A stretch of DNA of 6,577 nucleotides, taken from UHGV virus genome UHGV-1437364, one strand, 5' to 3'. The translations under genes and the position numbers were made by a program. Below the pieces are notes generated by a model, which worked only from the letters and a program-made list of their open reading frames with translations, was not told the origin of the DNA and ran no database searches. Below are positions 1,597-1,772 of the stretch, piece by piece; position 1 is the first letter of the stretch, and each line of letters begins with the position of its first letter. Source of the DNA: a virus.

Positions 1597-1772
1597 TAAT
1601 ACACCAACTTAATTACTGCTTCAGGTTGGTGTATTGTTTGCATCTTTCCCTTTTCATTCATAAAGATAGAGCAAACAACAAAACCACCACCACCCCCCTG
1701 AAAAAGCTCATAAATAGCGAAAAACCGCGAGGTCGCCGCCCCGTAACGGGCCATAATTCCAGGAAGGACCCG
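1597..1772 (-). other. Lambda-type cos site (cosQ-like, cosN, divergent cosB), minus orientation, directly upstream of the Nu1-like gene
   Basis: On the minus strand this reads GCGGGTCCTTCCTGGAATTATGGCCCGTTACG-GGGCGGCGACCT-CGCGGTTTTTCGCTATTTATGAGC. cosN is at 1741..1730. The first ~35 bp after cosN match the lambda left end, after which the sequence diverges (G-rich tract GGGGGGTGGTGGTGG, then the palindrome). Confidence 0.75.
1598..1635 (-). promoter_or_regulatory. Perfect 11-bp inverted repeat AATACACCAAC-N16-GTTGGTGTATT abutting the TerS start codon
   Basis: Arms at 1598-1608 and 1625-1635 are exact reverse complements. The element sits in the divergent cosB-like leader immediately 5-prime of the TerS ATG (1596..1594). 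Confidence 0.4.

What the first reader, a model, noticed from the sequence alone, without database searches (positions are those of the whole stretch)
1598..1635. Perfect 11-bp inverted repeat immediately upstream of the TerS start codon
AATACACCAAC (1598-1608) and GTTGGTGTATT (1625-1635) are exact reverse complements separated by 16 nt. The element replaces the R-site region of this cos and begins 2 nt from the TerS ATG. It could be the binding site for the divergent TerS DNA-binding domain, or an mRNA hairpin that occludes the ribosome-binding region.
Basis: seen in the sequence. Interest (0 to 1): 0.45.

Follow-up and report, generated by a model that had tools for sequence, protein, structure and literature searches.

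The report
R2/R1-type repeat in satellite cosB
The 11-bp inverted repeat is real. It most likely marks two oppositely oriented copies of the DNA motif that a phage satellite's own small terminase reads to package its genome, as in phage lambda. Only one copy is conserved in related islands, so this is an ordinary, partly decaying packaging-site feature rather than a new regulatory element.

Summary
**Observation:** confirmed. AATACACCAAC (1598-1608) and GTTGGTGTATT (1625-1635) are exact reverse complements 16 nt apart, and the repeat ends 1 nt before the terS ATG (1596-1594, minus strand).

**Context:** the window is the right half of a phage-inducible chromosomal island (PICI) of E. coli Nissle 1917 / ATCC 25922. 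Its 180-aa TerS sits where the related island EcCICFT073 carries rppA. The closest phage TerS is N15 gp1, at 46% identity.

**Evidence that the arms are R sites:**
- The mapped N15 TerS site, R3 (GAGGTTGTTGTTT), matches three places within 3 mismatches. All three lie in the 100 bp between cosN and terS.
- Two overlapping matches lie at bp 49-69 from the cohesive end. I call this site R3'.
- One inverted match lies at bp 108-120 and contains the distal arm. I call this site R2'.
- The proximal arm (R1', bp 131-144) is a direct copy of the R2' core.
- The layout copies lambda cosB, where R2 and R1 form a perfect 16-bp inverted repeat.

**Evidence against the pair as a unit:**
- Of 94 sampled E. 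coli-type copies, 33 have the perfect repeat.
- The other 61 copies carry 3-4 uncompensated mismatches, all but one in the proximal arm.
- No pair covaries.
- In Enterobacter-type relatives the proximal position is an ordinary Shine-Dalgarno sequence.

The predicted -13.7 kcal/mol mRNA hairpin over the ribosome site is therefore confined to one lineage. Interest is low to moderate.

The parts
1730..1741 (-). cosN cohesive-end sequence GGGCGGCGACCT of the island's terS-proximal cos. Base 1 of the numbering used in this report is window 1741.
   Evidence: Identical to lambda bp 1-12. Conserved or replaced by other cosN types across related islands.
1701..1772 (-). cosQ-like, cosN and 'CGCTATTTATGA' block. 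It is one arm of a roughly 75-bp inverted duplication with 831-903.
   Evidence: pairs I2 and I3 (88-96% complementary). Alignment with lambda and EcCICFT073 cos.
1775..1800 (-). Terminator-like hairpin (GCCGGAGAAATCCGGC followed by T6) just upstream of cosQ. It ends the capsid / decoration / 137-aa gene block.
   Evidence: Seen in sequence. RNA fold -18.9 kcal/mol, z = -2.7. Not flagged by the consensus scan. A 94% identical copy lies at 4204-4234 (D1).
1673..1693 (-). R3' (bp 49-69), a (GGT)n(GTT)n tract reading GTGGTGGTGGTTTTGTTGTTT. Proposed primary binding site of the island's TerS.
   Evidence: Two overlapping matches to N15 R3 (GAGGTTGTTGTTT) within 3 mismatches. The tract GGTGGTGGTKTTGTT is the best-conserved segment of the cosN-to-ATG interval across the E. 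coli, Enterobacter, Kosakonia and Superficieibacter islands. It lies at and just beyond the lambda and N15 R3 positions, bp 50-65 and 48-60 (PMC9026076). All N15-type TerS homologues have their best R3-like match upstream of terS in this orientation.
1620..1636 (+). R2' (bp 106-122), inverted relative to R3'. On the plus strand it reads TTCAGGTTGGTGTATTG and contains the distal arm of the finding (1625-1635).
   Evidence: A match to N15 R3 within 3 mismatches on the opposite strand (1622-1634). Matches on both strands occur in 0.18% of shuffles of the cosB region itself. ACACCAACCTGAA is invariant in 94 E. coli-type copies, and CAATACACC[A/C]AC is conserved in other genera except one clade that reads AAATATAGCCAC. 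The position is close to lambda R2, bp 109-124.
1598..1611 (-). R1' (bp 131-144), TAAGTTGGTGTATT, in the same orientation as R3'. It contains the proximal arm of the finding (1598-1608) and overlaps the weak Shine-Dalgarno sequence GGUG of terS.
   Evidence: An exact inverted copy of the R2' 11-bp core, and 9 of 13 matches to N15 R3. It has four alleles in related islands. Enterobacter-type relatives have CAGAGGTGAAAATG here instead.
1054..1596 (-). [quoted passage not shown]
   Evidence: Pfam PF07471, E=2e-23. 35% identity to lambda Nu1, 46% to N15 gp1, alignment. It occupies the slot held by rppA in EcCICFT073.
863..1035 (+). Second, convergent cos of lambda type. It comprises cosN (863-874), an R3-like site (about 913-931), an IHF-like site (936-948), R2 (about 961-982) and R1 (about 1017-1035). 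It points at the 3' end of terS.
   Evidence: sequence set beside lambda. pair I15, and (R2/R1 inverted repeat). (IHF consensus with 1 mismatch). 83% identity to the cos region of phage PhiR5_1 over 149 bp.

Best explanation
The repeat belongs to cosB, the small-terminase binding region of the island's own cos site. The island is a Gram-negative PICI. It encodes its own N15-type small terminase where the related island EcCICFT073 encodes the hijacking protein RppA.

Between cosN and the terS start codon lie three copies of an N15-R3-like sequence, with the orientations of lambda-like cosB:
- R3' at bp 49-69, direct.
- R2' at bp 106-122, inverted.
- R1' at bp 131-144, direct.

The two arms of the finding are the 11-bp cores of R2' and R1'. 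That makes them the counterpart of lambda's perfect 16-bp R2/R1 inverted repeat.

Proposed mechanism: dimers of the island's TerS winged-helix domain bind R3' and R2' across the A/T-tract spacer between them, and bind R1' in this haplotype. The lambda-like C-terminus of TerS recruits the helper phage's TerL. TerL is thereby positioned to nick cosN and package island DNA.

R1' is only weakly constrained. It overlaps the terS ribosome-binding site and has drifted in most related islands. A by-product in this haplotype is an mRNA hairpin that buries the weak Shine-Dalgarno sequence and probably lowers TerS translation.

**Shown here:** the sequence layout, the conservation pattern, the homology of TerS to N15 gp1, and the similarity of the sites to the mapped N15 R3.

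**Inferred:** TerS binding to any of these sites, the bend between R3' and R2', recruitment of TerL, and the effect on translation.
For: - The nearest phage TerS is N15 gp1. It is 46% identical and its DNA-binding domain has the same indel pattern and motif.
- N15 R3 was mapped by linker scanning to bp 48-60 (PMC9026076). In the N15 sequence those bases read GAGGTTGTTGTTT.
- That 13-mer has 4 matches within 3 mismatches in the 6.6-kb window. Three lie in the 100-bp cosB region: two overlapping on the terS strand and one on the opposite strand that contains the distal arm. When the cosB region itself is shuffled, matches on both strands occur in 0.18% of trials.
- The positions resemble lambda: R3 at bp 50-65, R2 at 109-124, R1 at 151-166. 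In lambda, R2 and R1 form a perfect inverted repeat just upstream of Nu1. The window's own second cos has the same layout (I15).
- Conservation follows the R-site footprint and not the hairpin. ACACCAACCTGAA, which is the distal arm plus 5 nt of 'loop', is invariant in 94 E. coli-type copies, and its core persists in Enterobacter, Kosakonia and Superficieibacter islands.
- Distant N15-type TerS genes in Pseudomonas-type, Glaciecola and Thalassotalea loci all have their best R3-like match upstream of terS in the same orientation.
- Every E. coli-type allele of the proximal arm keeps 7-9 of 11 complementary positions. This is consistent with descent from an inverted copy.
Against: - No binding data exist for this TerS.
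- R3' and R2' are not significantly similar to each other when compared directly. The exception is one relative, L021, at 12 of 14 (p about 0.01). The argument therefore rests on the comparison with N15 R3.
- R3' lies about 9 bp further from cosN than N15 R3.
- No IHF consensus is found between R3' and R2'.
- R1' varies freely while the TerS DNA-binding domain is almost invariant. R1' is absent in Enterobacter-type islands.
- On the terS gene tree the perfect allele is confined to one terminal clade. It may therefore be a secondary 'perfection', for example a template-switch correction of a quasi-palindrome, rather than a maintained site.
- The arm centres are 27 bp apart, about 2.6 helical turns. 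That is not a classical same-face operator geometry.
- N15 itself works with R3 alone (PMC9026076).
Confidence: 0.47

Rival explanations
1. Only the distal arm is functional, as a cosB subsite or as some other conserved element. The proximal arm is just the Shine-Dalgarno and spacer region of terS. On this reading the perfect complementarity has no function as a pair. It arose or persisted in one lineage by drift, or by template-switch correction of a quasi-palindrome.
For: - The proximal arm has four alleles among the 94 copies, and 5-6 of its 11 columns vary. Only 2 of 11 vary in the distal arm. That makes the proximal arm about as variable as the unconstrained loop and 5' flank.
- No compensatory changes occur.
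- L035 is a recombinant that joins the window-type distal side to another proximal allele.
- The perfect allele is confined to one terminal terS clade.
- Allele P4 differs from the perfect allele by two adjacent bases (GA to TG), and both changes fall on the arm. This is the expected signature of templated correction; that reading rests on general knowledge and was not tested.
- Enterobacter-type islands have a canonical AGAGGTG Shine-Dalgarno sequence at this position and no copy of the arm.
Against: - An exact 11-of-11 match cannot arise by chance at a fixed position. All E. coli-type alleles and the outgroup L021 keep 7-9 of 11 complementary positions, so an inverted copy is old.
- If TerS binds the R2' core, it should also bind the identical core 27 bp away in this island.
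Confidence: 0.33
2. The repeat acts at the RNA level. It forms a stem-loop in the terS leader that sequesters the Shine-Dalgarno sequence and sets or regulates TerS translation. On this reading the hairpin has been selected in this lineage.
For: - The hairpin is -13.7 kcal/mol in this haplotype, against -2.9 to -6.0 kcal/mol for the other alleles.
- The leader folds with z = -4.09.
- The probability that the Shine-Dalgarno region is unpaired is 0.10 here and 0.41-0.46 in the other alleles.
- No sigma-70 promoter is predicted between cos and terS, so the leader is probably part of the mRNA.
Against: - Covariation score is 0, and every substitution breaks a pair.
- Two thirds of E. coli-type islands and all Enterobacter-type islands lack the stem.
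- Conservation is asymmetric and runs into the loop, which a stem would not require.
Confidence: 0.12
3. The palindrome is an operator for a transcription regulator. Candidates are the island's helix-turn-helix / AlpA-type proteins or a helper-phage protein. It would control terS.
For: It is an inverted repeat directly upstream of a gene. Related islands carry an AlpA-family gene just upstream of cos.
Against: - No promoter-like site is found there.
- The palindrome is not conserved.
- This island has an unrelated 137-aa protein in place of the AlpA-like gene, yet it carries the most perfect repeat.
- The 27-bp centre-to-centre spacing is atypical for an operator.
Confidence: 0.05

Closest known systems
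Phage lambda cosB (R3-I1-R2-R1)
   Same: - It lies between cosN and the small-terminase gene.
- It has three related R sequences, with R2 inverted relative to R3 and R1.
- R2 and R1 form a perfect inverted repeat just upstream of the start codon: 16 bp in lambda (bp 109-124 and 151-166) and 11 bp here (bp 107-117 and 134-144).
- R3 lies about 50-65 bp from the cohesive end (PMC9026076).
   Different: - The R sequence is GT-rich and N15-like (AGGTTGGTGTAT), not CGTTTCC-type.
- No IHF consensus lies between R3' and R2'.
- R2' and R1' are closer together, with a 16-bp spacer against 26 bp in lambda.
- R1' overlaps the ribosome-binding site.
- R1' is degenerate in most relatives.
Phage N15 cos (single R3-N15) and TerS gp1
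   Same: - The TerS DNA-binding domains are homologous (46% identity overall).
- The R3 sequence is similar (GAGGTTGTTGTTT in N15; GGTTTTGTTGTTT and GTGGTGGTGGTTT here).
- R3 is at a similar distance from cosN.
   Different: - N15 has only R3 and its ATG is at bp 89 (PMC9026076). Here the ATG is at bp 146.
- About 55 extra bp carry an inverted copy and a second direct copy.
- The best R3' register lies about 9 bp further from cosN.
EcCICFT073 cos1 / RppA system (Fillol-Salom 2018 and 2019)
   Same: - The island has the same backbone: int, alpA, primase, ori, SSB, gpE-like capsid, gpD-like decoration and the 137-aa gene.
- A small DNA-binding packaging gene sits between two convergent cos sites.
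- The island has a specific cosB next to lambda-like cosQ and cosN.
   Different: - The slot holds a full-length Nu1-family TerS (180 aa) and not Rpp (144 aa). The two show no detectable similarity (BLASTP E=1.4), and TerS finds no Rpp chain in the PDB.
- The TerS C-terminus is lambda-like, so it could bind TerL directly without a helper TerS.
- The cosB is longer and has repeated R sequences. The Rpp-type cosB is reported to have none (PMC9026076).
SaPI-type satellite TerS strategy
   Same: The satellite encodes its own small terminase, which recognises a satellite-specific packaging site and uses the helper's TerL (described in PMC6092414).
   Different: The SaPI strategy is pac/headful packaging in Gram-positive bacteria. 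This island uses a cos system with a lambda-type cohesive end. The TerS-encoding E. coli PICIs tested so far (IHE3034 and 18098) did not transfer (PMC6092414).
Shine-Dalgarno-sequestering leader hairpins
   Same: In this haplotype a stable stem covers the Shine-Dalgarno sequence 1 nt upstream of the AUG.
   Different: There is no conservation and no covariation, which is the usual hallmark of a functional RNA structure.

Membership tests
lambda-like cosB (R3-I1-R2-R1) | Lies immediately downstream of a cosN with a 12-nt cohesive-end sequence and upstream of a Nu1-family terS | tested here: met
   GGGCGGCGACCT at 1741-1730 on the minus strand. The terS ATG is at bp 146. Pfam Phage_Nu1 E=2e-23.
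lambda-like cosB (R3-I1-R2-R1) | Three mutually related R sequences, with R2 in the opposite orientation to R3 and R1 | tested here: inconclusive
   R2' and R1' share a perfect inverted 11-mer. R3' compared directly with R2' is not significant. Both match N15 R3 within 3 mismatches in opposite orientations, P=0.0018 against region shuffles.
lambda-like cosB (R3-I1-R2-R1) | R3 about 48-65 bp from the first base of the cohesive end | tested here: met
   The conserved GT-rich tract spans bp 48-69. The best N15-R3 registers are bp 49-61 and 57-69.
lambda-like cosB (R3-I1-R2-R1) | IHF site (I1) between R3 and R2 | tested here: not met
   WATCAANNNNTTR with up to 1 mismatch has no match in 1597-1700. 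Only A/T tracts are seen there. The second cos does have a 1-mismatch site at 936-948.
lambda-like cosB (R3-I1-R2-R1) | R sequences are bound by the cognate TerS and are needed for packaging initiation | not testable with these tools
   This needs gel shift, footprinting or a cos-plasmid transduction assay.
N15-type cos (R3 only) | TerS DNA-binding domain homologous to N15 gp1 | tested here: met
   46% identity over residues 5-166, with shared indels and motif.
N15-type cos (R3 only) | A single R sequence, with no R2 or R1 and a short cosB (ATG at bp 89) | tested here: not met
   The ATG is at bp 146. An additional inverted copy and a direct copy lie at bp 106-144.
Rpp-type PICI cos (EcCICFT073 cos1) | An adjacent rpp gene of 139-154 aa whose product heterodimerises with the helper TerS | tested here: not met
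   The adjacent gene is a 180-aa Nu1-family TerS. BLASTP against RppA gives E=1.4. No Rpp chain is found in the PDB search.
Rpp-type PICI cos (EcCICFT073 cos1) | R3-PICI core ACCACCACC at bp 55-63 and no repeated R sequences | tested here: not met
   Here bp 55-63 reads GTGGTTTTG. (GGT)n lies on the top strand at bp 48-58, which is the complement orientation. Repeated copies are present.
Gram-negative PICI | int-alpA-pri-ori backbone integrated at a chromosomal site, a size of 10-20 kb, and partial phage late genes | tested here: met
   In Nissle 1917 the island runs from tRNA-Pro and int to the 93-aa gene, about 11.5 kb, with primase, iterons, SSB, gpE-like and gpD-like genes. It has the same order as EcCICFT073.
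Regulatory mRNA hairpin that sequesters the ribosome site | A stable stem that includes the Shine-Dalgarno sequence or the start codon | tested here: met
   -13.7 kcal/mol. The probability that the Shine-Dalgarno region is unpaired is 0.10. z = -4.09.
Regulatory mRNA hairpin that sequesters the ribosome site | The structure is maintained in homologues through conserved pairing or compensatory changes | tested here: not met
   No pair has a change on both sides. Six of 11 pairs are broken in some sequences. Covariation score is 0. 61 of 94 copies lack the stem.

The most novel reading that the evidence does not exclude
TerS-encoding enterobacterial PICIs may carry a dual-specificity packaging cassette. 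On one side is a satellite-specific cos whose cosB is a full R3-R2-R1 array of N15-type sites, read by the satellite's own N15-type TerS. The finding's repeat would be its R2/R1 pair. Back to back with it is a helper-type lambda cos. The island could then be packaged through either its own or the helper's small terminase. The cassette would be interchangeable with the rpp cassette of EcCICFT073. This would be a second, Rpp-independent route by which cos satellites redirect helper terminase. It would also show an N15-type TerS using multiple R sites, which phage N15 itself does not need.
Probability: 0.3. Interest if true: 0.5.

Novelty: new member of a known kind. Interest (0 to 1): 0.3.

Why it matters
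The cosB of TerS-encoding Gram-negative PICIs has not been described in the papers I could search. For E. coli PICIs, only the Rpp-type cos has been studied there.

If the R3'-R2'-R1' reading is right, it gives concrete candidate sites for testing three questions:
- how these islands select their own DNA;
- why Rpp-type and TerS-type cassettes replace each other at the same locus;
- whether an N15-type TerS dimer uses a second, inverted site, a question Murialdo and Feiss left open for N15.

For the finding as written, the main message is cautionary. A perfect palindrome beside a start codon here is mostly a by-product of repeated terminase sites. It is not a conserved regulatory hairpin.

Tried and rejected
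- **Genome scan with TerS alone:** it found no relatives. An alignment query then found 6 loci.
- **PDB sequence searches:** the TerS search and the 137-aa protein search found neither Nu1 nor Rpp chains. The neighbouring 127-aa protein of relatives is AlpA-family and not Rpp.
- **AlphaFold2 model of TerS:** mean pLDDT was 58.7 from a 13-sequence alignment. This is too poor for a fold search, so I did not use it. Its secondary structure is compatible with a winged helix-turn-helix domain.
- **Promoter scan of 800-1900:** no sigma-70-like site was found. I dropped the idea that the conserved distal block is a promoter.
- **IHF consensus in the cosB region:** none was found.
- **Direct R3'-versus-R2' similarity test:** it was not significant in most clades. 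I replaced it with the comparison to the experimentally mapped N15 R3.
- **'Perfect allele is ancestral':** I first inferred this because the perfect allele is the centroid of the variants. The terS tree contradicts it, placing the perfect allele in one terminal clade. Recombination is seen in L035. The ancestral state is therefore left open.
- **Invertible switch between the two cos arms:** only 1 of about 100 loci (L004) has the terS cassette inverted. This is a rare recombination event and not a switch.
- **att-site direct repeat:** I searched between the tRNA-Pro end and the left end of the island and found no repeat of 12 bp or more.

Full report
**1. The observation**

The window reads AATACACCAAC at 1598-1608 and GTTGGTGTATT at 1625-1635. 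These are exact reverse complements with 16 nt between them.

The gene next to them is on the minus strand. In the direction of that gene the order is:
- distal arm AATACACCAAC (1635-1625);
- a 16-nt spacer;
- proximal arm GTTGGTGTATT (1608-1598);
- one A;
- ATG (1596-1594).

The ORF 1054-1596 encodes 180 aa and matches Pfam Phage_Nu1 at E=2e-23. The family conserves M1 and the first residues, MxxHL, and distant members have Leu in place of the second Met. The ATG at 1596 is therefore the likely start.

Perfect 11-bp inverted repeats with a 3-40 nt loop occur in about 5% of dinucleotide shuffles of the window. The window has three of them, one of which lies inside the capsid gene. As RNA, the leader folds far better than shuffles do (z = -4.09). 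Its rarity alone does not prove function.

**2. Where the window comes from**

Both ends (1-47 and 6531-6577) are the same Nextera-type adapter in inverted orientation. The rest is 99.7% identical to a chromosomal island of E. coli Nissle 1917, ATCC 25922 and many other strains.

In Nissle the island runs from tRNA-Pro and an integrase through the following genes:
- a helix-turn-helix regulator, Icd-like genes and a primase;
- iterons;
- SSB;
- a lambda gpE-like capsid gene and a gpD-like decoration gene;
- a 137-aa gene;
- the small terminase gene;
- a 93-aa gene.

This is the gene order of the model Gram-negative PICI EcCICFT073. I located EcCICFT073 in the CFT073 genome between roxA and phoQ. 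There the slot between the 137-aa and 93-aa genes holds the 144-aa RppA (c1503) (PMC6739421). The two proteins are unrelated in sequence. The 2018 survey already noted that some Gram-negative PICIs encode TerS, but it did not characterise them (PMC6092414).

**3. Two cos sites**

The terS gene lies between two convergent cos sites, whose cosQ-cosN parts form a roughly 75-bp inverted repeat (831-903 and 1701-1772). EcCICFT073 has the same arrangement around rppA, matching the published cos1 and cos2.

The cos on the plus strand (from 863) is lambda-type. It has R3-, R2- and R1-like CGTTTC sequences and an IHF-like site, and it is 83% identical to the cos of phage PhiR5_1.

The cos on the minus strand leads into terS and contains the finding. 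It has cosN identical to lambda, then CGCTATTTATGA, and then sequence unlike lambda.

**4. Conservation test**

I collected 94 E. coli-type copies of the cosN-to-terS interval. They are the window itself, complete E. coli genomes, metagenome contigs found through TerS relatives, and an IMG/VR pattern scan anchored outside the arms.

| Proximal-arm allele | Copies |
|---|---|
| GTTGGTGTATT (perfect) | 33 |
| GTGGGGATATT | 34 |
| GTTGTGGTATC | 22 |
| GTTGGGATATT | 5 |

- The distal arm is invariant apart from a T-to-C change at its third base in some copies.
- The non-perfect combinations keep 7-8 Watson-Crick pairs, have no G-U pairs, and fold at -2.9 to -6.0 kcal/mol. The perfect stem folds at -13.7 kcal/mol.
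- On an alignment of 15 distinct sequences, no pair changes on both sides, 6 of 11 pairs are broken somewhere, and the covariation score is 0.
- One locus (L035) is a recombinant between the two arms.
- In Enterobacter, Kosakonia, Citrobacter-type and Superficieibacter islands TerS is 54-59% identical. There the distal block persists as CAATACACCCAC, except in the L017-type clade, which reads AAATATAGCCAC. The proximal position is a canonical Shine-Dalgarno sequence, CAGAGGTGAAAATG.

The invariant block is ACACCAACCTGAA, which runs 5 nt into the 'loop'. Selection therefore acts on an asymmetric site that includes the distal arm, and not on the hairpin.

**5. What the conserved site is**

The closest phage TerS is N15 gp1, at 46% identity. 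The DNA-binding domains share indels and the motif AFDKWGV.PVE..GRE.F.DV, while the rest of the protein resembles lambda-type Nu1.

Murialdo and Feiss report that N15 cosB is a single R sequence mapped by linker scanning to bp 48-60 (PMC9026076). In the N15 sequence that segment reads GAGGTTGTTGTTT.

Searching this 13-mer in the window with up to 3 mismatches gives four matches. Three fall in the 100 bp between cosN and terS:
- GTGGTGGTGGTTT on the terS strand (bp 49-61);
- GGTTTTGTTGTTT on the terS strand (bp 57-69);
- CAGGTTGGTGTAT on the opposite strand (bp 108-120).

The third match is the conserved block that contains the distal arm. When this GT-rich region itself is shuffled, matches on both strands occur in 0.18% of trials. 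The proximal arm region, TAAGTTGGTGTAT, is a 9-of-13 match in the same orientation as R3'.

The GT-rich tract at bp 48-69 is the best-conserved part of the interval across genera. Every distant N15-type terS I retrieved has its best R3-like match upstream in the same orientation.

The layout is R3' direct, R2' inverted, R1' direct, at bp 49-69, 106-122 and 131-144. This parallels lambda, whose sites lie at bp 50-65, 109-124 and 151-166, and whose R2 and R1 form a perfect 16-bp inverted repeat upstream of Nu1.

**6. Mechanism (inferred)**

The island's TerS binds R3' and R2' through its winged-helix dimer. The spacer between them is rich in A/T tracts, and no IHF consensus is found there. TerS also binds R1' where that copy is intact. 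Its lambda-like C-terminal part recruits the helper's TerL to nick the lambda-type cosN and start packaging towards terS.

R1' looks dispensable:
- it drifts in relatives while the DNA-binding domain is nearly invariant;
- N15 needs only R3;
- in lambda a given mutation is most severe in R3 (PMC9026076).

In the perfect haplotype the transcript can bury the already weak Shine-Dalgarno sequence. The probability that this region is unpaired is 0.10, against 0.41-0.46 for the other alleles. TerS translation is therefore probably lower in this lineage. I regard this as a side effect.

**7. Uncertainties**

- R3' and R2' are not significantly alike when compared directly.
- R3' lies about 9 bp further from cosN than N15 R3.
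- On the terS gene tree the perfect allele forms one terminal clade nested among other alleles. The outgroup L021 nevertheless shares its TGTATT half. The perfect state may therefore be retained or secondarily restored, for example by template-switch correction of a quasi-palindrome, where GA to TG separates it from the GTTGGGATATT allele.
- No experiment has addressed TerS-type PICI cos sites in the literature I could search.

**8. Verdict**

The repeat is real. It is best read as the R2/R1-type pair of a satellite cosB with N15-like specificity. Only its distal half is under clear selection, and the hairpin is lineage-specific. This is a new member of a known kind. It is useful mainly as a set of testable candidate terminase sites for an uncharacterised class of PICI.

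Noticed in passing
window 1-47 and 6531-6577: Both ends carry the same 47-nt Nextera-type adapter (…GTCTCGTGGGCTCGGAGATGTGTATAAGAGACAG) in inverted orientation. The window is a library fragment or synthetic long read and not a natural end. The GTG 'start' of the primase ORF at 6546 lies in adapter sequence.
   Followed up: partly
window 831-1053 (plus strand) versus 1597-1772 (minus strand): Two convergent cos sites flank terS. The second is lambda-type, with R3-, IHF-, R2- and R1-like elements, and is 83% identical to phage PhiR5_1 cos. The first has the N15-like cosB. EcCICFT073 has the same two-cos layout around rppA. Only part of the TerS-type islands carry the second cos: 29 of 94 sampled copies do, and 15 were too short to judge.
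   Followed up: partly
L004 (E. coli PM4-5, NZ_CP096834.1) 2686-4383: The segment between the two inverted cos arms, which holds terS and both cosB regions, is inverted relative to the capsid, decoration, 137-aa and 93-aa genes. This is the only such case among about 100 loci. It looks like a rare recombination between the 75-bp inverted cos arms.
   Followed up: yes
window 4150-4235 (minus strand): A third cos-like module lies between the SSB gene and the 68-aa ORF upstream of the capsid gene. It has a terminator hairpin and GGGTCCT 94% identical to 1765-1795, followed by a cosN-like GGGCGGGAGGCG. That sequence resembles the cosN variants (GGGCGGAAGGCG) seen in other islands. No N15-type R3 is at the expected distance. 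It may be a relic or an alternative cos.
   Followed up: no
window 359-535: Three direct repeats of 19-27 nt (CGAAAATATCAACGGGTTA) each contain a perfect IHF consensus WATCAANNNNTTR, at 370-382, 469-481 and 523-535. They lie near the island end opposite the integrase. They could be IHF or arm-type sites of the attachment region, but this was not established.
   Followed up: partly
window 631 and 4193, versus L001 12584-12600 and 16163: Compared with Nissle 1917 the window lacks 17 bp (CGCGGATCCGTATGTTG) inside the conserved 93-aa ORF, which frameshifts it. It also lacks one C in a C-run. These are the only differences in 6.5 kb. Each is either a real deletion or a read error.
   Followed up: partly
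window 3373-3383 and 3418-3428: A second perfect 11-bp inverted repeat (TAGCCAGGTTT-type, 34-nt spacer) lies inside the gpE-like capsid gene. It shows that such repeats also occur in coding sequence here.
   Followed up: no
related loci, alignment (for example L002, L029, L038, L082): Islands with the same N15-like cosB carry different cohesive-end sequences: GGGCGGCGACCT, GGGCGTCAGGCG, GGGCGGAAGGCG, GGGCGGCAGACG and GGGCGGCTGACG. This suggests that cosN is swapped to match different helper TerL enzymes while cosB and TerS stay together.
   Followed up: no
window 1684-1694 versus L110 (EcCICFT073) 19613-19621: At the R3 position the TerS-type islands have (GGT)3-4 on the top strand (bp 48-58). 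Rpp-type islands have its complement, ACCACCACC, at bp 55-63. This is the same trinucleotide repeat in the opposite orientation.
   Followed up: no
L003, L013-L020, L022: Relatives of this island are integrated inside late genes of lambdoid prophages: a truncated capsid E gene or portal gene followed by FI and head-tail genes. These are the 'helper-embedded satellites' described in bioRxiv 10.1101/2022.07.18.500453. They have an AlpA-family 127-aa gene where this island has the unrelated 137-aa gene.
   Followed up: partly
window 4990-5225: A dense array of GGTAGA(C/G)AGGGTAGA-type iterons in both orientations lies just downstream of the primase gene. This is the expected position of a PICI replication origin.
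   Followed up: no
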